Assembly (NCBI RefSeq): GCF_002854065.1 | Contig: NZ_CP024147.1 | Reading direction: 5' to 3' (one strand) | From: Escherichia coli | Lineage (GTDB): Bacteria; Pseudomonadota; Gammaproteobacteria; Enterobacterales; Enterobacteriaceae | DNA: 64,000 bases | Part shown: positions 2,394 through 32,282 of the stretch, piece after piece | How positions within the stretch are numbered: position 1 is the first letter of the stretch | Layout of the letters: each line of letters begins with the position of its first letter | Program-made: the position numbers and the translations under genes | The notes under the pieces: generated by a model | Told to the model about the DNA's origin: nothing | Databases searched by the model: none | The model's input: the letters and a program-made list of their open reading frames with translations, nothing else

Positions 2394-2635
2394 GTCATTG
2401 CCTCTCATTGAAGTATGATGGCTATTTGACACTATCCTTTACCCTCGCTCAACAGTTTAATAACCTGCCAGCAATAAGGGATGTTGTTTAACTTAAGTCA
2501 AAAAAATAGCGATTTTTCCAACGACAAAAGCTAAATATCGCAAAAACCTCAGTAAAAATCTTGCTGGAGCTATTATTGCTAAGTAACATTTACCCCCTGA
2601 AGTTAATGGATCAATCAACAGAGATGTGAGTTGTA

Positions 2636-2761
2636 ATGAATCGTCTTATTGAATTAACAGGTTGGATCGTTCTTGTCGTTTCAGTCATTCTTCTTGGCGT
2701 GGCGAGTCACATTGACAACTATCAGCCACCTGAACAGAGTACTACGGTACAACACAAGTAA
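2636..2761 (+). CDS. blr: 41-aa small membrane protein Blr (beta-lactam resistance / divisome-associated)
   Basis: Hand-translated: MNRLIELTGWIVLVVSVILLGVASHIDNYQPPEQSTTVQHK, stop TAA; below the 60-aa ORF-track cutoff; single hydrophobic helix. Confidence 0.85.
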   Translation: MNRLIELTGWIVLVVSVILLGVASHIDNYQPPEQSTTVQHK

Positions 2762-3033
2762 GCTCTGCGCTTGTAGAGCGACATGCTGCCCGTCCGGGTG
2801 CATGTTTTCACTTGTCGGATATTAAACCAGGAATTTATTATCTTGTTCGGTGTTGTTGGTGATTGTCAGGGATAGTAAAGCGCGTTACTCTTTTCATAGC
2901 AGTTTTTCATCCCTGAATATTTGCCATCAGCGCATTCTTATTATTGTAATAACACAAGCGTTCACTTTTGGTGAAATTTTATCATCACTAATAATACCTA
3001 CCCCTTTGGTATTAATTATTTTATGGACCTTTT

Positions 3034-3249
3034 ATGACTGTTCAGGACTACTTATTAAAATTTCGCAAAATCAGTTCACTCGAAAGTCTGGAAAAACTCT
3101 ACGACCATCTTAATTACACCCTGACGGACGATCAGGAACTGATCAATATGTATCGTGCTGCCGATCACCGTCGCGCAGAGCTGGTTTCTGGCGGGCGTTT
3201 GTTTGACCTTGGCCAGGTACCGAAGTCCGTCTGGCACTATGTCCAATAA
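3034..3249 (+). CDS. cnu: Hha/YmoA-family nucleoid-associated protein Cnu (OriC-binding nucleoid-associated protein)
   Basis: 71-aa [31 protein letters not shown]... recognised. Confidence 0.93.
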
Positions 3250-3334
3250 AGAAAGTAGCGATCGGTTATAAAAGCCTTATAATAACGCCCCTAAAATTAG
3301 ATTTGCCTGTTTGCGTCGCTATTCTGGAGAACCT

Positions 3335-3775
3335 ATGACCACCACAACGCCACAACGTATTGGAGGCTGGTTGCTTGGCCCGTTGGCCTGGCTTTTAGTC
3401 GCTCTGTTAAGTACGACGCTGGCGTTGTTGCTGTATACCGCTGCGTTATCTTCTCCGCAAACATTTCAAACGCTCGGCGCACAAGCACTGACGACACAAA
3501 TCTTATGGGGCGTTTCTTTTATTACCGCTATCGCCATGTGGTATTACACACTGTGGTTGACCATCGCTTTCTTTAAACGTCGGCGTTGTGTTCCTAAACA
3601 CTATATTATCTGGCTGCTTATTTCCGTATTGCTGGCAGTAAAAGCGTTCGCTTTTTCACCCGTGGAAGATGGCATAGCCGTTCGCCAGTTGCTGTTTACT
3701 TTGTTGGCAACCGCATTGATCGTCCCCTATTTCAAACGCTCGTCGCGGGTGAAAGCGACGTTTGTGAATCCGTAA
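3335..3775 (+). CDS. ydgK: inner membrane protein YdgK (DUF2569)
   Basis: ORF track 3311..3775; start trimmed to internal ATG (MTTTTPQRIGGWLLG...) giving 146 aa; multiple hydrophobic helices. Confidence 0.85.
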   Translation: MTTTTPQRIGGWLLGPLAWLLVALLSTTLALLLYTAALSSPQTFQTLGAQALTTQILWGVSFITAIAMWYYTLWLTIAFFKRRRCVPKHYIIWLLISVLLAVKAFAFSPVEDGIAVRQLLFTLLATALIVPYFKRSSRVKATFVNP

Positions 3776-3851
3776 TAACCTTACAGTTAACCTGTTGTCG
3801 CCTGCTCTGGATTAACGGATAATAGGCGGCTTTTTTATTTCAGGCCGAAAA

Positions 3852-4432
3852 ATGACTGACTACCTGTTACTGTTTGTTGGAACTGTACTGGTCAATAACT
3901 TTGTACTGGTCAAGTTTCTCGGTCTCTGTCCGTTTATGGGAGTTTCCAAAAAGCTGGAAACCGCGATGGGCATGGGGCTGGCAACAACGTTTGTGATGAC
4001 GCTGGCGTCTATTTGCGCCTGGCTTATCGATACGTGGATTTTGATCCCACTTAATCTGATTTACCTGCGCACCCTGGCATTTATTCTGGTGATTGCTGTG
4101 GTCGTGCAGTTCACCGAGATGGTGGTGCGCAAAACCAGCCCGGTGCTTTACCGTTTGCTGGGGATTTTTTTGCCGCTTATCACCACCAACTGTGCCGTGC
4201 TCGGCGTGGCGTTGCTGAATATCAATCTCGGGCACAATTTCTTGCAGTCGGCGCTGTACGGTTTTTCCGCCGCTGTCGGTTTTTCGCTGGTGATGGTTCT
4301 CTTCGCAGCCATCCGCGAACGCCTTGCTGTGGCTGATGTCCCGGCACCTTTTCGCGGTAATGCCATTGCGTTAATTACCGCAGGTCTTATGTCTCTGGCC
4401 TTTATGGGCTTTAGTGGTTTGGTGAAGTTGTA

Positions 4433-4433
<1 letters not shown>
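3852..4433 (+). CDS. rsxA: Rsx/Rnf ion-translocating oxidoreductase complex subunit A
   Basis: 193-aa polytopic membrane ORF; recognised; first gene of rsxABCDGE-nth cluster. Confidence 0.95.
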
Positions 4434-7322
<2,889 letters not shown>

Positions 7323-24839: not shown

Positions 24840-25937
24840 ATGTCATCTGAAAAACTGTATTCCCCACTGAAAGTGGGCGCAATAACTGCGGCAAACCGTA
24901 TTTTTATGGCACCGCTGACGCGTCTGCGCAGTATTGAACCGGGTGACATCCCTACCCCGTTGATGGCGGAATACTATCGCCAACGTGCCAGTGCCGGTTT
25001 GATTATTAGCGAAGCCACGCAAATTTCTGCCCAGGCAAAAGGGTATGCTGGTGCACCTGGCATCCATAGTCCGGAACAAATTGCCGCATGGAAAAAAATT
25101 ACCGCTGGCGTTCATGCTGAAAATGGACATATGGCCGTACAGCTGTGGCACACCGGACGCATTTCTCACGCCAGCCTGCAACCTGGCGGTCAGGCACCGG
25201 TAGCGCCTTCAGCACTTAGCGCGGGAACACGTACTTCTCTGCGCGATGAAAATGGTCAGGCGATCCGTGTTGAAACATCCATGCCGCGTGCGCTTGAACT
25301 GGAAGAGATTCCAGGTATCGTCAATGATTTCCGTCAGGCCATTGCTAACGCGCGTGAAGCCGGTTTTGATCTGGTAGAGCTCCACTCTGCTCACGGTTAT
25401 TTGCTGCATCAGTTCCTTTCCCCTTCTTCAAACCATCGTACCGATCAGTACGGCGGCAGCGTGGAAAATCGCGCACGTTTGGTACTGGAAGTGGTCGATG
25501 CCGGGATTGAAGAATGGGGTGCCGATCGCATTGGCATTCGCGTTTCGCCAATCGGTACTTTCCAGAACACGGATAACGGCCCGAATGAAGAAGCCGATGC
25601 ACTGTATCTGATTGAACAACTGGGTAAACGCGGCATTGCTTATCTGCATATGTCAGAACCAGATTGGGCGGGGGGTGAACCGTATACTGATGCGTTCCGC
25701 GAAAAAGTACGCGCCCGTTTCCACGGTCCGATTATCGGCGCAGGTGCATACACGGTAGAAAAAGCCGAAACGCTGATTGGCAAAGGGTTAATTGATGCGG
25801 TGGCATTTGGTCGTGACTGGATTGCGAACCCGGATCTGGTCGCCCGCTTGCAGCGCAGAGCTGAGCTTAACCCACAACGTGCCGAAAGTTTCTACGGTGG
25901 CGGCGCGGAAGGCTATACCGATTACCCGACGTTGTAA
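24840..25937 (+). CDS. nemA: N-ethylmaleimide reductase (Old Yellow Enzyme family, FMN)
   Basis: 365-aa ORF; recognised. Confidence 0.95.
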
Positions 25938-26017
25938 TCCAACATTGCGAGCGGCGTAAAGCCGCCGCTATACTAAAACAACATTTTGAATCTGTTAGCC
26001 ATTTTGAGGATAAAAAG

Positions 26018-26425
26018 ATGCGTCTTCTTCATACCATGCTGCGCGTTGGCGATTTGCAACGCTCCATCGATTTTTATACCAAAGTTCTGGGCATGAAACT
26101 GCTGCGTACCAGCGAAAACCCGGAATACAAATACTCACTGGCGTTTGTTGGCTACGGCCCGGAAACCGAAGAAGCGGTGATTGAACTGACCTACAACTGG
26201 GGCGTGGATAAATACGAACTCGGCACTGCTTATGGTCACATCGCGCTTAGCGTAGATAATGCCGCTGAAGCGTGCGAAAAAATCCGTCAAAACGGGGGTA
26301 ACGTGACCCGTGAAGCGGGTCCGGTAAAAGGCGGTACTACGGTTATCGCGTTTGTGGAAGATCCGGACGGTTACAAAATTGAGTTAATCGAAGAGAAAGA
26401 CGCCGGTCGCGGTCTGGGCAACTAA
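26018..26425 (+). CDS. gloA: glyoxalase I (lactoylglutathione lyase)
   Basis: 135-aa [29 protein letters not shown]...; recognised. Confidence 0.95.
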
Positions 26426-26527
26426 TCTCCTGCCGGGCGTGAACTCCTCGCGCCCGCATCTTTACTGCATCGACAAGTAATATTTGTCATAATGCGCGCT
26501 GCAATTTATCCGTATTAAGAGAATCAG

Positions 26528-27175
26528 ATGTCCGATAACGCTCAACTTACCGGTCTGTGCGACCGTTTTCGTGGTTTTTATCCTGTTGTGATCGATGTTG
26601 AAACAGCCGGATTTAACGCCAAAACCGATGCGCTGCTTGAGATTGCCGCCATCACCCTGAAAATGGATGAACAAGGCTGGCTGATGCCGGACACCACATT
26701 ACATTTCCACGTCGAACCATTTGTCGGCGCAAATTTGCAACCAGAAGCCCTTGCCTTCAACGGCATTGACCCGAACGATCCCGATCGCGGCGCGGTCAGC
26801 GAATACGAGGCGCTGCACGAAATTTTTAAAGTTGTACGTAAAGGTATTAAAGCGAGCGGCTGTAACCGCGCCATTATGGTGGCGCACAACGCCAATTTCG
26901 ATCACAGCTTTATGATGGCCGCCGCAGAACGCGCCTCACTGAAACGTAACCCGTTCCACCCTTTCGCCACTTTTGACACTGCTGCACTGGCCGGGCTGGC
27001 ACTCGGACAAACCGTATTGTCAAAGGCTTGCCAGACCGCTGGCATGGACTTCGACAGCACCCAGGCGCACTCCGCGCTGTACGACACCGAACGCACTGCG
27101 GTGCTGTTTTGTGAAATCGTCAACCGCTGGAAACGTCTGGGAGGCTGGCCGCTACCTGCCGCCGAAGAGGTGTAA
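26528..27175 (+). CDS. rnt: ribonuclease T (DEDDh 3'-5' exoribonuclease)
   Basis: 215-aa ORF; recognised ([12 protein letters not shown] motif I). Confidence 0.95.
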
Positions 27176-27267
27176 TCGAGTCGATGCCTGATGACATGCA
27201 ATGATTCAGGCATCTATAGTGAGGCTATTCCACGCATCATGCATGATATTCACGGGGAATAGCGTTA

Positions 27268-30200
27268 ATGGCAGATAATCCAAACCCTTCATCGCCCCTG
27301 CCGGACGTGTTTTCACCGGCGACCCGCGACTGGTTTCTTCGCGCCTTTAAACAGCCGACCGCTGTCCAGTCGCAAACCTGGCATGTGGCGGCGCGAGGCG
27401 AACATGCGCTGGTGATTGCACCGACCGGCTCCGGGAAAACGCTGGCAGCATTTCTCTACGCCCTCGATCGGCTCTTCCGCGAAGGCGGCGAAGATACCCG
27501 CGAGGCGCATAAGCGTAAAACCTCACGCATTCTCTATATTTCACCGATAAAAGCCCTGGGCACCGACGTTCAGCGCAACTTGCAGATCCCGTTACAGGGT
27601 ATTGCCGATGAACGGCGGCGGCGCGGCGAAACGGAAGTCAATCTTCGCGTGGGGATCCGTACTGGCGATACGCCTGCACAGGAACGCAGCAAACTCACCC
27701 GTAATCCGCCGGATATTCTGATCACCACACCCGAATCACTCTATCTGATGCTGACCTCCCGCGCGCGCGAAACGCTACGCGGCGTCGAAACGGTAATTAT
27801 TGATGAAGTCCACGCGGTAGCGGGCAGTAAACGTGGTGCGCATCTGGCGTTAAGTCTGGAGCGGCTCGATGCGCTGCTCCACACCTCAGCACAGCGAATT
27901 GGCCTTTCTGCCACTGTGCGCTCAGCCAGCGATGTGGCAGCATTTCTTGGCGGCGATCGCCCGGTTACGGTAGTCAACCCGCCCGCAATGCGCCATCCGC
28001 AGATACGGATTGTCGTACCGGTCGCCAATATGGATGATGTCTCATCGGTCGCCAGCGGCACTAGCGAAGACAGCCATGCCGGCCGGGAAGGCTCCATCTG
28101 GCCATATATTGAAACGGGTATCCTTGATGAAGTGTTGCGCCATCGCTCGACCATTGTCTTTACTAATTCGCGGGGGCTGGCGGAAAAACTGACGGCACGA
28201 TTAAATGAGCTTTACTCCGCACGCTTACAGCGTTCCCCGTCTATCGCCGTTGATGCGGCCCATTTCGAGTCGACCTCCGGCGCAACCTCTAACCGTGTAC
28301 AAAGTAGCGACATTTTTATTGCCCGCTCACACCACGGCTCCGTCTCTAAAGAACAACGAGCAATAACCGAACAGGCGCTGAAATCGGGTGAATTACGCTG
28401 CGTGGTCGCAACTTCCAGTCTCGAACTGGGGATTGATATGGGCGCTGTGGATCTGGTGATTCAGGTGGCAACGCCGCTTTCTGTTGCCAGTGGGTTACAA
28501 CGCATTGGACGTGCCGGACACCAGGTAGGTGGTATCTCCAAAGGGCTTTTTTTCCCCCGAACCAGGCGTGACTTAGTCGATTCCGCAGTCATTGTAGAGT
28601 GTATGTTCGCAGGCAGGCTGGAAAACCTGATACCACCGCATAATCCACTCGACGTCCTTGCGCAGCAAACCGTTGCCGCCGCGGCGATGGATGCATTACA
28701 GGTAGACGAATGGTACTCCCGCGTACGCCGTGCCGCACCGTGGAAAGATCTGACAAGACGTGTTTTTGACGCCACGCTGGATATGCTTTCCGGGCGCTAT
28801 CCCTCTGGCGATTTTTCTGCTTTTCGCCCCAAACTGGTCTGGAACAGGGAGACCGGGATATTGACCGCCCGACCTGGCGCTCAGCTGTTGGCGGTTACCA
28901 GCGGCGGCACCATTCCGGATCGTGGCATGTATAGCGTGTTATTACCCGAAGGGGAAGAACAGGCCGGTTCGCGACGGGTGGGTGAACTGGATGAGGAGAT
29001 GGTATATGAGTCACGGGTGAACGATATTATCACTCTCGGCGCAACCTCATGGCGGATCCAGCAAATCACCCGCGATCAGGTGATTGTGACTCCTGCTCCG
29101 GGTCGTTCTGCCCGGCTCCCCTTCTGGCGTGGTGAAGGTAACGGACGTCCGGCTGAATTAGGCGAGATGATCGGCGATTTTCTTCATTTACTGGCGGATG
29201 GAGCGTTCTTTTCCGGGACTATTCCCCCGTGGCTGGCTGAAGAAAATACGATCGCCAATATTCAGGGGTTGATTGACGAGCAGCGCAACGCGACGGGCAT
29301 CGTTCCGGGGAGTCGTCATCTGGTCCTCGAACGGTGCCGTGATGAAATTGGCGACTGGCGTATTATTTTGCACTCTCCCTATGGAAGACGGGTGCATGAA
29401 CCCTGGGCGCTGGCGATTGCCGGGCGAATACATGCGCTATGGGGCGCTGATGCATCTGTGGTCGCCAGTGATGACGGCATTGTTGCGCGCATTCCTGACA
29501 CTGATGGTAAATTGCCCGACGCCGCGATTTTTTTGTTTGAACCAGAAAAGTTGCTGCAAATTGTCCGCGAGGCGGTAGGCAGTTCGGCACTTTTCGCCGC
29601 CCGTTTTCGCGAATGCGCCGCGCGGGCATTATTAATGCCGGGCCGCACGCCGGGCCATCGCACCCCGCTCTGGCAACAACGGCTGCGCGCCAGTCAGTTG
29701 CTGGAAATCGCTCAGGGATATCCGGATTTTCCGGTCATTCTCGAAACCCTACGCGAATGTCTGCAAGATGTTTATGATCTTCCCGCACTGGAACGTTTGA
29801 TGCGTCGCCTGAACGGTGGCGAAATTCAAATATCCGATGTAACGACTACTACGCCCTCGCCTTTCGCCACAAGTTTATTGTTCGGCTATGTCGCGGAATT
29901 TATGTACCAGAGCGACGCCCCGCTGGCAGAGCGCCGGGCATCCGTACTGTCGCTGGACAGCGAGTTACTGCGCAATCTACTCGGACAGGTCGATCCGGGG
30001 GAATTACTCGACCCGCAGGTCATTCGCCAGGTGGAAGAAGAGTTGCAACGACTGGCTCCTGGCAGAAGAGCGAAAGGTGAAGAAGGATTGTTCGACCTGC
30101 TGCGCGAACTGGGGCCAATGACCGTCGAAGACCTGGCGCAACGGCATACAGGCAGCAGTGAAGAGATTGCGTCGTATCTGGAAAATCTTCTTACAGTAAA

Positions 30201-31884
30201 ACGCATCTTCCCGACGATGATTAGCGGACAGGAGCGTCTTGCCTGTATGGATGATGCCGCCAGGCTGCGCGATGCCCTCGGCGTACAACTACCAGAGTCT
30301 CTGCCAGAGATTTATTTGCATAGAGTCAGTTACCCGCTTCGCGACCTCTTTCTGCGCTATCTCCGGGCTCATGCTCTGGTCACGGCTGAACAACTGGCTC
30401 ATGAGTTTAGTCTCGGTATTGCCATTGTCGAAGAGCAGCTTCAGCAACTGCGCGAACAGGGTCTGGTGATGAATCTGCAACAAGACATCTGGGTGAGCGA
30501 TGAAGTATTTCGTCGTCTGCGTTTGCGCTCGCTGCAAGCCGCCAGAGAAGCGACGCGTCCCGTTGCAGCCACGACCTATGCGCGATTGCTGCTGGAACGT
30601 CAGGGCGTATTACCCGCCACCGATGGTAGCCCGGCGCTCTTTGCCTCAACATCGCCAGGCGTTTATGAGGGCGTGGATGGCGTGATGCGGGTGATCGAAC
30701 AGCTTGCCGGAGTCGGTTTACCCGCCTCACTCTGGGAAAGCCAGATCCTGCCTGCCCGCGTACGCGACTATTCGCCAGAAATGCTCGATGAATTACTGGC
30801 AACCGGAGTGGTTATCTGGTCGGGACAAAAAAAGCTGGGTGAAGATGACGGCCTGGTGGCACTGCATCTACAGGAATATGCCGCAGAATCGTTCACTCCC
30901 GCCGAAGCGGATCAGGCGAATCGTTCGGCGCTGCAGCAAGCGATAGTCGCTGTTCTGGCTGACGGAGGAGCCTGGTTTGCACAACAAATCAGCCAACGGA
31001 TACGCGACAAAATCGGCGAATCGGTTGATCCCTCGGCACTGCAAGAGGCGTTATGGGCGCTGGTCTGGCAAGGCGTCATCACCAGCGATATTTGGGCACC
31101 GTTACGCGCCCTCACCCGCAGCAGTTCCAACGCACGCACCTCAACTCGCCGCAGTCACCGGGCTCGTCGTGGGCGTCCTGTCTATGCACAACCCGTCTCG
31201 CCGCGGGTATCTTACAACACACCAAATCTGGCTGGACGCTGGTCGTTATTGCAGGTGGAGCCACTAAACGATACCGAAAGGATGCTGGCGCTGGCGGAAA
31301 ATATGCTCGACCGCTACGGCATCATCAGTCGTCAGGCGGTGATAGCCGAAAATATCCCTGGCGGGTTTCCATCGATGCAAACGCTTTGTCGAAGTATGGA
31401 AGATTCCGGGCGAATTATGCGAGGTCGTTTTGTAGAAGGTCTGGGTGGCGCGCAATTCGCTGAACGTCTGACTATTGACCGCTTGCGCGACCTGTCGACA
31501 CAAGCCGCGCAAACGCGCCACTATACACCAGTGGCGCTCTCCGCCAACGATCCGGCTAATGTGTGGGGAAATCTTCTGCCCTGGCCTGCACATCCGGCAA
31601 CGCTGGTACCAACGCGTCGGGCGGGTGCGCTGGTGGTCGTTTCTGGCGGCAAATTGTTACTCTATCTGGCGCAAGGTGGCAAAAAAATGCTGGTCTGGCA
31701 GGAAAAAGAGGAATTACTCGCCCCAGAGGTTTTCCACGCGCTGACTACCGCACTGCGTCGCGAACCACGGCTGCGCTTTACGCTAACAGAAGTGAATGAT
31801 CTACCGGTCCGGCAAACGCCGATGTTTACGCTGCTGCGTGAGGCGGGATTTTCAAGTTCGCCACAAGGGCTGGATTGGGGATAG
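27268..31884 (+). CDS. lhr: large ATP-dependent helicase Lhr (superfamily 2)
   Basis: 1538-aa ORF; Walker A APTGSGKT, DEVH box; recognised. Confidence 0.95.
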   Translation: MADNPNPSSPLPDVFSPATRDWFLRAFKQPTAVQSQTWHVAARGEHALVIAPTGSGKTLAAFLYALDRLFREGGEDTREAHKRKTSRILYISPIKALGTDVQRNLQIPLQGIADERRRRGETEVNLRVGIRTGDTPAQERSKLTRNPPDILITTPESLYLMLTSRARETLRGVETVIIDEVHAVAGSKRGAHLALSLERLDALLHTSAQRIGLSATVRSASDVAAFLGGDRPVTVVNPPAMRHPQIRIVVPVANMDDVSSVASGTSEDSHAGREGSIWPYIETGILDEVLRHRSTIVFTNSRGLAEKLTARLNELYSARLQRSPSIAVDAAHFESTSGATSNRVQSSDIFIARSHHGSVSKEQRAITEQALKSGELRCVVATSSLELGIDMGAVDLVIQVATPLSVASGLQRIGRAGHQVGGISKGLFFPRTRRDLVDSAVIVECMFAGRLENLIPPHNPLDVLAQQTVAAAAMDALQVDEWYSRVRRAAPWKDLTRRVFDATLDMLSGRYPSGDFSAFRPKLVWNRETGILTARPGAQLLAVTSGGTIPDRGMYSVLLPEGEEQAGSRRVGELDEEMVYESRVNDIITLGATSWRIQQITRDQVIVTPAPGRSARLPFWRGEGNGRPAELGEMIGDFLHLLADGAFFSGTIPPWLAEENTIANIQGLIDEQRNATGIVPGSRHLVLERCRDEIGDWRIILHSPYGRRVHEPWALAIAGRIHALWGADASVVASDDGIVARIPDTDGKLPDAAIFLFEPEKLLQIVREAVGSSALFAARFRECAARALLMPGRTPGHRTPLWQQRLRASQLLEIAQGYPDFPVILETLRECLQDVYDLPALERLMRRLNGGEIQISDVTTTTPSPFATSLLFGYVAEFMYQSDAPLAERRASVLSLDSELLRNLLGQVDPGELLDPQVIRQVEEELQRLAPGRRAKGEEGLFDLLRELGPMTVEDLAQRHTGSSEEIASYLENLLTVKRIFPTMISGQERLACMDDAARLRDALGVQLPESLPEIYLHRVSYPLRDLFLRYLRAHALVTAEQLAHEFSLGIAIVEEQLQQLREQGLVMNLQQDIWVSDEVFRRLRLRSLQAAREATRPVAATTYARLLLERQGVLPATDGSPALFASTSPGVYEGVDGVMRVIEQLAGVGLPASLWESQILPARVRDYSPEMLDELLATGVVIWSGQKKLGEDDGLVALHLQEYAAESFTPAEADQANRSALQQAIVAVLADGGAWFAQQISQRIRDKIGESVDPSALQEALWALVWQGVITSDIWAPLRALTRSSSNARTSTRRSHRARRGRPVYAQPVSPRVSYNTPNLAGRWSLLQVEPLNDTERMLALAENMLDRYGIISRQAVIAENIPGGFPSMQTLCRSMEDSGRIMRGRFVEGLGGAQFAERLTIDRLRDLSTQAAQTRHYTPVALSANDPANVWGNLLPWPAHPATLVPTRRAGALVVVSGGKLLLYLAQGGKKMLVWQEKEELLAPEVFHALTTALRREPRLRFTLTEVNDLPVRQTPMFTLLREAGFSSSPQGLDWG

Positions 31885-31891
31885 AGAAAGG

Positions 31892-31921
31892 ACTGACGGA
31901 TGCCCGTTCGCATCCGTCAGT
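31892..31921. terminator. bidirectional terminator hairpin between lhr and grxD
   Basis: actgacggatgc-ccgttc-gcatccgtcagt perfect 12-bp stem. Confidence 0.7.
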
Positions 31922-31934
31922 ATTGCAGGACGGA

Positions 31935-32282
31935 TTATTCCGCGTCCGGCTCTTCAGACTTGTATTTAGCGGCAGTTTCTTTGATCAGCTGCTGCAGTTC
32001 ACCACGCTGATACATTTCGATCACGATATCACAACCGCCTACCAGCTCGCCGTCAACCCACAGTTGCGGGAAGGTCGGCCAGTTAGCATATTTCGGCAGT
32101 TCCGCACGAATGTCCGGATTCTGCAGAATATCAACATAGGCAAAACGTTCGCCACATGCGGCAAGCGCCTGGACTGCCTGGGCAGAGAAACCGCAGCTCG
32201 GCAGTTTCGGTGAACCTTTCATGTACAGCAGGATCGGGTTTTCAGCAATCTGGCGTTGGATTTTTTCGATAGTGGTGCTCAT
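31935..32282 (-). CDS. grxD: monothiol glutaredoxin 4
   Basis: 115-aa ORF with CGFS active site (LPSCGFSAQAV); recognised. Confidence 0.95.
   Translation of the reverse strand: MSTTIEKIQRQIAENPILLYMKGSPKLPSCGFSAQAVQALAACGERFAYVDILQNPDIRAELPKYANWPTFPQLWVDGELVGGCDIVIEMYQRGELQQLIKETAAKYKSEEPDAE

What the first reader, a model, noticed from the sequence alone, without database searches (positions are those of the whole stretch)
27183..27267. Stem-loops in the rnt-lhr junction, one overlapping the lhr ribosome-binding region
Two inverted repeats follow rnt: gatgcctga...tcaggcatc (27183-27214) and gctattcc...ggaatagc (27223-27263). The 3' arm of the second sits over the purine-rich stretch just before the lhr ATG at 27268. 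Neither has a U-tail, so they are not terminators; they could be RNA processing or translational-control elements for the very long lhr message.
Basis: seen in the sequence. Interest (0 to 1): 0.2.

Follow-up and report, generated by a model that had tools for sequence, protein, structure and literature searches.

The report
Conserved stem-loops in rnt–lhr spacer
The 92-base gap between the E. coli RNase T gene and the Lhr helicase gene holds two real, evolutionarily maintained RNA hairpins, one just after rnt and one covering the lhr ribosome-binding site; this is an ordinary kind of expression control, not a new one.

Summary
Both inverted repeats are present in this E. coli O157:H7 window. 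SL1 is 27183-27191/27206-27214: 9 perfect pairs, 14-nt loop. SL2 is 27224-27231/27256-27263: 8 perfect pairs plus 2 inner pairs. Each folds at -14.6 kcal/mol (z about -2.6). SL2's 3' arm covers the only Shine-Dalgarno-like tract (GGGGAA, 27254-27259).

There is no Rfam match, no U-tail and no Term-seq 3' end at either hairpin.

The stems are conserved. The spacer is at least 99% identical in 4823 of 5425 complete E. coli genomes. In a lineage whose rnt DNA is 15% diverged, 4 of 34 stem bases changed against 27 of 58 non-stem bases (p = 0.0005). Three of those four changes keep pairing. One SL2 pair runs A-U, G-U, G-C across lineages.

In about 70 other Enterobacterales, rnt is followed by a bidirectional terminator and convergent grxD. 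So lhr and this spacer are a lineage-specific insertion.

Best reading: on the rnt-lhr co-transcript, SL2 occludes the lhr ribosome-binding site and SL1 acts as an intercistronic hairpin. A rival is an internal promoter-like site (ATGACA-18-TATAGT) that overlaps SL1. This is an ordinary member of a known kind; function is untested.

The parts
27173..27175 (+). rnt stop codon (TAA); SL1 begins 7 nt downstream
27183..27214 (+). SL1: 9-bp perfect stem (27183-27191/27206-27214) with a 14-nt loop, -14.6 kcal/mol. No U-tail. One copy per genome.
   Evidence: The stem is invariant in close Escherichia. It shows G-C to A-U in the P0016 lineage. A homologous GCCTGAT...ATCAGGC hairpin is present in four Citrobacter-type spacers.
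27191..27220 (+). Sigma-70 promoter-like match, ATGACA (27191-27196), 18-nt spacer, TATAGT (27215-27220), 10 of 12 positions. It overlaps the SL1 loop and 3' arm. This is the rival reading; no TSS evidence was found.
   Evidence: the SMRT-Cappable-seq operon table has no lhr-only unit
27224..27263 (+). SL2: 8-bp core stem (27224-27231/27256-27263) plus 2 inner pairs (27233-27234/27253-27254), -14.6 kcal/mol. Its 3' arm holds the lhr Shine-Dalgarno tract.
27254..27259 (+). Shine-Dalgarno-like tract GGGGAA for lhr. Predicted unpaired probability is 0.19 in the full spacer.
27268..27270 (+). lhr start codon. The same start is annotated in K-12, and it is conserved in all lhr lineages aligned.

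Best explanation
The 92-nt rnt-lhr spacer is the untranslated link of an rnt-lhr co-transcript. That transcript arose when lhr was inserted between rnt and convergent grxD, removing the ancestral rnt/grxD terminator. The spacer carries two independent plus-strand RNA hairpins.

**SL2 (27224-27263).** It pairs an upstream pyrimidine-containing segment (GCUAUUCC) with the ribosome-binding tract (GGGGAAUAGC), and it ends 4 nt before the AUG. It most likely acts as a constitutive damper of lhr translation initiation. This would keep Lhr synthesis low and independent of rnt translation.

**SL1 (27183-27214).** It starts 7 nt after the rnt stop codon. It most likely acts as an intercistronic barrier hairpin. 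In that role it would protect the rnt cistron against 3'-to-5' exonucleases once the long lhr part of the message is cut or prematurely ended. This is the role shown for REP and other intercistronic hairpins.

**Shown here:** the sequences, the predicted stability, the occlusion of the ribosome-binding tract, and the conservation and covariation of the stems.

**Inferred:** that the hairpins form in vivo and have these effects on translation and mRNA stability.
For: **Anatomy and stability**
- Searches give the coordinates and energies.
- RNAalifold recovers both hairpins as the consensus structure of nine Escherichia-type spacers.

**Ribosome-binding-site occlusion**
- The mean unpaired probability over -15..-5 is 0.17 for lhr.
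- That is the 3rd lowest of 48 genes in the surrounding 50 kb of K-12.
- It stays at about 0.19 from 25 to 45 C.

**Conservation**
- The spacer is at least 99% identical in 4823 of 5425 complete E. coli genomes.
- Among close Escherichia, 13 spacer columns vary. Only 1 lies in the 34 stem positions, and it is a C-G to U-G wobble (Fisher p = 0.015).
- Against the P0016 lineage (rnt DNA about 85% identical), 4 of 34 stem positions differ, versus 27 of 58 non-stem positions (p = 0.0005).
- Against E. fergusonii the figures are 12 of 34 versus 37 of 58 (p = 0.007).

**Covariation**
- 97.4% of cells are paired, against 36-46% when the 3' partners are slid.
- 3 pairs show changes on both sides.
- The SL2 pair at columns 52/85 runs A-U (7 sequences), G-U (1), G-C (1).
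- The SL1 pair at columns 8/39 is G-C (7) or A-U (2).
- The G-U and U-G intermediates pair only on the plus strand.

**Co-transcription and absence of termination**
- RegulonDB lists an rnt-lhr operon (b1652|b1653), as quoted in the SMRT-Cappable-seq tables.
- PMC8301817 states that the two genes are co-transcribed.
- No terminator-like site is found, and no Term-seq 3' end falls in the spacer.

**Citrobacter-type spacers**
- They keep a homologous first hairpin with plus-strand wobble variants.
- They also show a predicted TTTCCC/GGGA pairing over the ribosome-binding tract.
Against: - No experimental data on lhr translation, or on RNA structure in this spacer, were found.
- The covariation rests on about three independent lineages. 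There is one two-sided change in SL2 and two in SL1. Control (a) can be exceeded by related sequences without any structure.
- The SL2 3' arm would be conserved for ribosome binding in any case. Only the 5' arm is independent evidence.
- Truncating the 5' arm raises predicted accessibility only from 0.19 to 0.33, because the GGGG can also pair with CCCC at 27295-27298.
- Term-seq shows no stable 3' end at SL1, so a stabiliser role has no direct support.
- In E. fergusonii the SL1 sequence is replaced by a different hairpin.
- SL1 conservation is mostly at the sequence level. A protein-binding palindrome would give the same pattern.
Confidence: 0.55

Rival explanations
1. DNA-level reading. The spacer holds lhr's own sigma-70 promoter: -35 ATGACA at 27191-27196 and -10 TATAGT at 27215-27220, with a start near 27227. 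The SL1 palindrome (GATGCCTGA-N14-TCAGGCATC) brackets the -35 and fills the spacer, so it would be an operator for a dimeric repressor. SL2 would then be only a 5'-UTR feature.
For: - This is the best promoter-like match in 1.7 kb: 10 of 12 positions, with 5 sites found against 1.3 expected.
- The hexamers are invariant in close Escherichia.
- The P0016 lineage keeps a similar layout, ATAACC-18-TATCAT.
- Citrobacter-type spacers carry an invariant LexA-box-like site at the equivalent place. This suggests lhr can have its own regulated promoter inside this spacer.
- SL1 is conserved mainly in sequence.
Against: - The SMRT-Cappable-seq operon table lists TSSs at 1726022, 1727799 and 1728318 for rnt-containing units. 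It lists none for an lhr unit. A rare 4.6-kb transcript could have been missed.
- RegulonDB and the literature treat rnt-lhr as one operon.
- E. fergusonii has no comparable hexamer pair (read).
- The wobble variants (U-G, G-U) in the stems break DNA symmetry but keep plus-strand RNA pairing.
- No known operator motif was recognised, and the E. coli spacer has no CTG-N10-CAG.
Confidence: 0.2
2. The hairpins are neutral leftovers of the lhr insertion event, or of a decayed REP-type palindrome. On this reading they have no present function, and their conservation reflects shared ancestry only.
For: - The whole spacer has no counterpart in lhr-less Enterobacterales, so it is evolutionarily young.
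- The SL1 outer stem resembles the REP ends, GCCTGAT...CATCAGGCA.
- Strains that have lost lhr still keep the spacer.
- Perfect inverted repeats of this size are common, 29 in 64 kb.
Against: - Stems are far less diverged than the loops and linkers in the same 92 nt: 4 of 34 versus 27 of 58, p = 0.0005.
- Changes in the stems are compensatory or wobble.
- The similarity to REP consensus sequences is not significant (P = 0.17).
- SL1 occurs once per genome.
Confidence: 0.17
3. A 23-codon upstream ORF (27191-27262, MTCNDSGIYSEAIPRIMHDIHGE) is translated. By ending 5 nt before the lhr ATG, it would open SL2 and couple lhr translation to it.
For: - The ORF exists and is open in E. coli and E. albertii.
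- Its stop codon TAG (27260-27262) lies in the SL2 3' arm, just before the lhr AUG.
Against: - There is no Shine-Dalgarno match upstream, and the ATG sits at the edge of the SL1 stem.
- The ATG is ATA in the P0016 lineage. The stop is CAG in E. fergusonii.
- All 10 codon changes among Escherichia are nonsynonymous (worked out).
Confidence: 0.05

Closest known systems
Shine-Dalgarno-sequestering leader hairpins (translational operator or attenuator stem-loops in bacterial 5' leaders and intercistronic regions)
   Same: The ribosome-binding tract is one arm of a stable local hairpin that ends a few bases before the start codon. The anti-SD arm is conserved and covaries with it.
   Different: - No trigger was identified: no ligand, protein, sRNA or temperature effect.
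- Predicted occlusion is flat from 25 to 45 C, so it looks constitutive rather than switch-like.
- Function is untested.
REP (repetitive extragenic palindrome) elements and other intercistronic mRNA-stabilising hairpins, e.g. malE-malF REP and REP325 in yjdMN (bioRxiv 10.64898/2026.03.23.713779)
   Same: - SL1 is a stable hairpin without a U-tail, placed just 3' of a stop codon between two tandem genes of one operon.
- Its outer stem, GCCTGAT...(C)ATCAGGCA, reads like the ends of E. coli REPs as listed in PMC2817692.
- The Citrobacter version, GCCTGATAACGCACGCTTATCAGGC, is closer still.
   Different: - There is no GTAG/CTAC tetranucleotide; the minus strand reads ATAG.
- There is no bulged inner stem.
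- It occurs once per genome.
- Alignment to REP consensus sequences is not significant.
- No 3' end was mapped at it.
Intrinsic (Rho-independent) terminators, including the ancestral rnt/grxD bidirectional terminator AAAAAAAGCGACC...GGTCGCTTTTTT of other Enterobacterales
   Same: SL1 sits where most relatives have the rnt terminator, directly after the rnt stop.
   Different: - It has a 14-nt loop and no T-run.
- It has no sequence similarity to the ancestral terminator.
- It was not called by the terminator scan.
- There is no Term-seq end at it.
LexA (SOS) boxes
   Same: Citrobacter-type rnt-lhr spacers have an invariant TACTGTATATTTGACCAGT (CTG-N10-CAG) between their two hairpins.
   Different: The E. 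coli spacer in this window has no such box. In SL1 the CTG and CAG are 16 nt apart.

Membership tests
Intrinsic terminator | G+C-rich stem with a short (3-8 nt) loop, followed within 0-2 nt by a run of T | tested here: not met
   The SL1 loop is 14 nt and is followed by TATAGTGAG. SL2 is followed by GTTAATGG. The scan finds no terminator-like site in 27176-27267.
Intrinsic terminator | A mapped RNA 3' end at the hairpin | tested here: not met
   The Term-seq supplement of PMC7815308 has no entry at K-12 17289xx-17290xx. It does list the gloA and grxD terminators.
REP / BIME palindromic unit (E. coli Y, Z1, Z2) | Conserved GTAG (CTAC on the other strand) adjoining the palindrome; essential for TnpA-REP recognition (PMC8266576) | tested here: not met
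   The plus strand has CATCTATAG after the stem, and the minus strand has ATAG-A before it. No GTAG or CTAC is present.
REP / BIME palindromic unit (E. coli Y, Z1, Z2) | Sequence match to the REP consensus, including the inner stem with its conserved mismatches | tested here: not met
   The best local alignment to the REP sequences of PMC2817692 is 9 nt (CATCAGGCA), with P = 0.17 against shuffles.
REP / BIME palindromic unit (E. coli Y, Z1, Z2) | Many dispersed copies per genome | tested here: not met
   There is one place per genome in 5425 genomes, with blastn word 11 and E up to 10. Short, diverged copies would escape this search.
SD-sequestering translational hairpin | Shine-Dalgarno tract base-paired in a stable local structure next to the start codon | tested here: met
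   GGGGAA at 27254-27259 lies in the SL2 3' arm. Its unpaired probability is 0.17-0.19, the 3rd lowest of 48 neighbouring genes.
SD-sequestering translational hairpin | Pairing maintained in evolution (covariation of the anti-SD arm) | tested here: met
   One pair runs A-U / G-U / G-C, and another shows C-G to U-G. Of SL2 cells, 98.6% are paired. The sample is small, about three independent lineages.
SD-sequestering translational hairpin | A measured effect on translation of the downstream gene | not testable with these tools
   This needs reporter fusions with arm and compensatory mutations.
RNA thermometer (ROSE / fourU type) | SD occlusion that melts within the physiological temperature range | tested here: not met
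   The predicted unpaired probability of the SD is 0.18-0.20 from 25 to 45 C. There is no Rfam match.
Any curated RNA family (Rfam 15) | Covariance-model match at or near the gathering score | tested here: not met
   Only three chance-level hits (E 3.9-9.2) were found in 25900-28000, and none lies in the spacer.
Sigma-70 promoter | -35 and -10 hexamers at 16-18 nt spacing | tested here: met
   ATGACA-18-TATAGT matches 10 of 12 positions. This is a consensus match only.
Sigma-70 promoter | A mapped transcription start about 7 nt downstream of the -10 | tested here: inconclusive
   No lhr-only unit appears in the SMRT-Cappable-seq tables. The stored Cappable-seq file is cut before this position. 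Other TSS tables were not available.
LexA box | CTG-N10-CAG with an AT-rich centre | tested here: not met
   There is no match in the Escherichia-type spacers. Matches occur in all four Citrobacter-type spacers.
Leader peptide / coupling uORF | Conserved start codon, and codon-level constraint or a conserved stop position | tested here: not met
   The start is absent in the P0016 lineage and the stop is absent in E. fergusonii. All 10 substitutions are nonsynonymous.

The most novel reading that the evidence does not exclude
The spacer could be a small regulatory module that travelled with lhr. In it, the SL1 palindrome would be the operator of an unidentified repressor acting on an internal lhr promoter. 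In Escherichia this would stand in for the LexA box that occupies the same place in Citrobacter-type spacers. Transcripts from that promoter start inside the SL2 5' arm, so they would escape part of the ribosome-binding-site occlusion. Lhr would then be made mainly from a damage- or stress-induced start, while read-through from rnt stays poorly translated.
Probability: 0.08. Interest if true: 0.45.

Novelty: new member of a known kind. Interest (0 to 1): 0.22.

Why it matters
Lhr is a repair helicase and uracil-DNA glycosylase whose cellular context is still unclear (PMC7437997, PMC10953399). How much of it is made, and when, bears on its weak knockout phenotypes.

- **Expression ratio.** A conserved hairpin over its ribosome-binding site, plus an intercistronic hairpin, would explain how one transcript can give different amounts of RNase T and Lhr.
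- **Practical use.** It tells anyone building lhr reporters or expression constructs to keep or deliberately remove 27224-27263.
- **Gene linkage.** The comparative result also qualifies a statement in the literature. In the roughly 90 Enterobacterales loci sampled here, the rnt-lhr linkage is confined to Escherichia, one unnamed lineage and the Citrobacter amalonaticus/farmeri group. There lhr was inserted in place of a conserved rnt/grxD terminator.

None of this changes a general principle.

Tried and rejected
**Readings rejected**
- **Rfam:** no family matched.
- **REP membership:** rejected on the GTAG motif, consensus alignment and copy number. K-12 RefSeq lists no repeat feature here.
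- **Terminator:** rejected.
- **RNA thermometer:** rejected.
- **LexA box in E. coli:** rejected.
- **Functional leader peptide:** rejected.
- **Descent of the spacer from the ancestral rnt-grxD spacer:** only chance-level short matches were found. A 9-10-nt match (CAGGACGGAT) that I saw by eye between one Citrobacter spacer and the E. coli lhr-grxD junction was judged coincidental after allowing for the number of comparisons.

**Searches that led nowhere**
- Published start-site data for lhr were sought. The Cappable-seq file was cut before this position. The Thomason, Conway and Grünberger supplements, and the Reuven 1995 paper, were not held.
- One Lhr cluster had no contig on record.

**Searches not run**
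- A metagenome scan was not run. It would mostly return E. coli copies.

Full report
**What the window is.** The region is 100% identical to E. coli O157:H7 chromosomes. The local gene order is nemA, gloA (26018-26425), rnt (26528-27175), lhr (27268-31884) and grxD on the minus strand (31935-32282). This comes and matches the K-12 annotation b1650-b1654.

**The observation.** Both inverted repeats are present.
- SL1 is GATGCCTGA (27183-27191) paired with TCAGGCATC (27206-27214). It has nine perfect pairs and a 14-nt loop.
- SL2 is GCTATTCC (27224-27231) paired with GGAATAGC (27256-27263). It can be extended by C27233-G27254 and G27234-C27253 across an A/G mismatch. A 12-nt palindrome (27236-27247) lies in its loop.
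- The purine tract GGGGAA (27254-27259) is the only Shine-Dalgarno-like sequence before the ATG at 27268, and it lies in the SL2 3' arm.
- As RNA, each hairpin folds at -14.6 kcal/mol with z about -2.6. The two form independently in the whole spacer (-29.4 kcal/mol, z -2.3).
- In a 121-nt context that includes coding flanks, the z-score is only -0.83.
- Perfect inverted repeats of 9 bp or more are about five times more frequent in this window than in shuffles (29 against 5.5). SL1 is real but not rare.

**What they are not.**
- There is no Rfam match.
- No terminator-like site is called, and neither stem is followed by a T-run.
- A published Term-seq table for K-12 (PMC7815308) lists 3' ends after gloA (1728279) and after grxD (1733706/7), but none in the spacer.
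- SL1's outer stem resembles the ends of E. coli REPs as printed in PMC2817692. However, it lacks the GTAG motif that PMC8266576 reports as indispensable.
- Its best alignment to REP consensus sequences is a 9-mer with P = 0.17.
- It occurs once per genome in 5425 genomes.
- Strict REP patterns find nothing in the window.
- I therefore do not file SL1 as a REP, although it may work like one.

**Evolutionary setting.** An RNase T-anchored scan of one genome per species returned 80 loci.
- Only Escherichia has lhr after rnt.
- In about 70 others (Citrobacter, Kluyvera, Enterobacter, Leclercia, Lelliottia, Serratia, Yersinia and so on), the rnt stop is followed within a few bases by a hairpin flanked by A- and T-runs, the form of a bidirectional intrinsic terminator. 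Across many Enterobacteriaceae genera this is AAAAAAAGCGACC...GGTCGCTTTTTT. Convergent grxD follows it.
- lhr has 54-58% G+C, against about 50% in the flanks.
- The E. coli spacer has no significant similarity to the rnt-grxD spacers of lhr-less species.
- Lhr homologues and their contigs show the rnt-lhr-grxD order in four groups:
  - E. coli, E. albertii and related Escherichia;
  - E. fergusonii, whose Lhr is only 73% identical;
  - an unnamed lineage (protein P0016, 77% Lhr identity), whose rnt DNA is about 85% identical to E. coli's;
  - the Citrobacter amalonaticus/farmeri group, with four spacer variants.
- Phytobacter, Brenneria and Pectobacterium have lhr elsewhere.
- So lhr and its upstream spacer are an insertion that replaced the ancestral terminator. 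This explains why rnt has no terminator here, and why the two genes are co-transcribed (PMC8301817; RegulonDB operon b1652|b1653).

**Conservation of the hairpins.**
- Within E. coli, the 112-nt query spanning the spacer is at least 99% identical in 4823 of 5425 genomes.
- Among seven distinct close Escherichia sequences, 13 spacer columns vary. Twelve are in loops or linkers. One is in a stem, and it is C-G to U-G (p = 0.015).
- The informative comparison is with the P0016 lineage. There, 27 of 58 non-stem positions have changed but only 4 of 34 stem positions (p = 0.0005). Three of those four keep pairing: G-C to A-U in SL1, and A-U to G-U in SL2.
- E. fergusonii turns that same SL2 pair into G-C and lengthens the stem. 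Its SL1 sequence is lost, but a different 9-bp hairpin sits at the same place.
- Counting pairs on the nine-sequence alignment gives 97.4% paired cells, against 36-46% for slid partners. Three pairs have two-sided changes.
- RNAalifold returns both hairpins as the consensus.
- The four Citrobacter-type spacers keep a homologous first hairpin (GCCTGATAA...TTATCAGGC) with U-G and G-U variants. They also show a predicted pairing of TTTCCC with the GGGA of the ribosome-binding tract.
- The wobble intermediates pair only on the plus strand. This favours RNA over a DNA palindrome.
- The sample is small, about three independent lineages for SL2, so this is supportive rather than proof.

**Likely mechanism.**
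- The predicted unpaired probability of -15..-5 is 0.17 for lhr. That is third lowest of 48 genes in the surrounding 50 kb of K-12.
- It does not change between 25 and 45 C.
- The tract is a weak Shine-Dalgarno match, with 10 nt between its last G and the AUG. I therefore read SL2 as a constitutive damper of lhr translation initiation.
- SL1 starts 7 nt past the rnt stop. I read it as an intercistronic hairpin of the kind that protects an upstream cistron from 3' exonucleases. REP325 in yjdMN is described this way in bioRxiv 10.64898/2026.03.23.713779.
- From my own knowledge (Liang, Rudd and Deutscher 2015, not held in the library), stable hairpins within 15 nt of a stop codon can also impede terminating ribosomes.
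- SMRT-Cappable-seq found rnt in three units: nemR-nemA-gloA-rnt, gloA-rnt and rnt alone. All end before the end of lhr ('ShorterEnd' relative to RegulonDB). This is compatible with less lhr than rnt RNA. It could equally reflect the length of lhr.

**Rivals.**
- The strongest rival is a promoter-like site, ATGACA-18-TATAGT (27191-27220, 10 of 12 positions). Its -35 lies in the SL1 loop, and its spacer is the SL1 3' arm.
- The hexamers are kept in close Escherichia and approximately in the P0016 lineage. They are not kept in E. fergusonii.
- No lhr start site appears in the tables I could read, and several other datasets were unavailable.
- A start near 27227 would truncate SL2. Predicted accessibility would rise only to 0.33, because GGGG can pair with CCCC at 27295-27298.
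- A neutral-relic reading is disfavoured by the contrast between stems and non-stem positions.
- A 23-codon upstream ORF (27191-27262) lacks a ribosome-binding site. It loses its ATG in the P0016 lineage, and all its substitutions are nonsynonymous.

**Verdict.** The elements are conserved plus-strand hairpins of familiar kinds in a lineage-specific spacer. I found no description of them in the literature searched. They are an ordinary member of a known class, and their function remains inferred. Interest is low to moderate.

Noticed in passing
window 27176-31934; loci L007-L084: lhr is a lineage-specific insertion between rnt and convergent grxD. About 70 other Enterobacterales instead have a conserved hairpin flanked by A- and T-runs, the form of a bidirectional terminator (AAAAAAAGCGACC...GGTCGCTTTTTT). 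lhr is 54-58% G+C, against about 50% in the flanks. Published statements that bacterial lhr is 'often' next to rnt hold here only for Escherichia, one unnamed lineage and the C. amalonaticus/farmeri group.
   Followed up: yes
L086:2409-2424, L091:668-683, L100:619-634, L101:613-628: All four Citrobacter-type rnt-lhr spacers carry an invariant LexA-box-like sequence, TACTGTATATTTGACCAGT (CTG-N10-CAG). It is the most conserved block of the spacer. This suggests SOS-regulated lhr in that lineage. Escherichia-type spacers are about 50 nt shorter and lack it.
   Followed up: partly
L004 (E. coli LF82) 468-696; L096 (SF-088); 'endonuclease' rows: A sizeable minority of E. coli genomes (LF82, SF-088 and others) have lhr reduced to about 240 nt of 5' and 3' remnants, annotated as 'endonuclease' / 'ATP-dependent helicase' pseudogenes. 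The rnt-lhr spacer with both hairpins is retained in them.
   Followed up: partly
L002 (E. coli CFSAN004176) about 1620-1653, equivalent to window 27218-27232: This strain has a 15-bp deletion (GTGAGGCTATTCCAC) that removes the SL2 5' arm. Its lhr is also split into pseudogene fragments.
   Followed up: no
window 31892-31903 / 31910-31921: A 12-bp hairpin (ACTGACGGATGC...GCATCCGTCAGT) lies between lhr and grxD. Term-seq places a very strong minus-strand 3' end here (K-12 1733706/7), so it is the grxD terminator. It has no good T-run on the lhr side.
   Followed up: partly
window 26434-26456: The hairpin after gloA (CGGGCG...CGCCCG plus CATCTTTACT) coincides with a Term-seq 3' end (K-12 1728279). 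Even so, SMRT-Cappable-seq reports gloA-rnt and nemR-nemA-gloA-rnt read-through units, so it is a leaky terminator upstream of rnt.
   Followed up: partly
L085 (E. fergusonii) 2501-7123: E. fergusonii Lhr is only 73% identical to E. coli Lhr, although it sits at the same rnt-grxD locus. E. albertii Lhr is 89% identical. This points to allelic replacement or independent acquisition at this site.
   Followed up: no
L098:1139-1489 (Brenneria), L099:1143-1493 (Pectobacterium): In these genera lhr directly follows a TfoX_N-domain gene, with spacers of 11 nt (Brenneria) and 7 nt (Pectobacterium). In Brenneria a UvrA-like gene lies just upstream. This is a different putative repair operon.
   Followed up: no
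window 27191-27262: A 23-codon ORF (MTCNDSGIYSEAIPRIMHDIHGE) spans both hairpins and stops 5 nt before the lhr ATG. It has no ribosome-binding site, its start is not conserved, and all its substitutions are nonsynonymous.
   Followed up: yes
window 27254-27257 with 27295-27298: The GGGG of the lhr ribosome-binding tract can also pair with CCCC inside the first codons of lhr. Predicted occlusion therefore persists (0.33 unpaired) even without the SL2 5' arm.
   Followed up: partly
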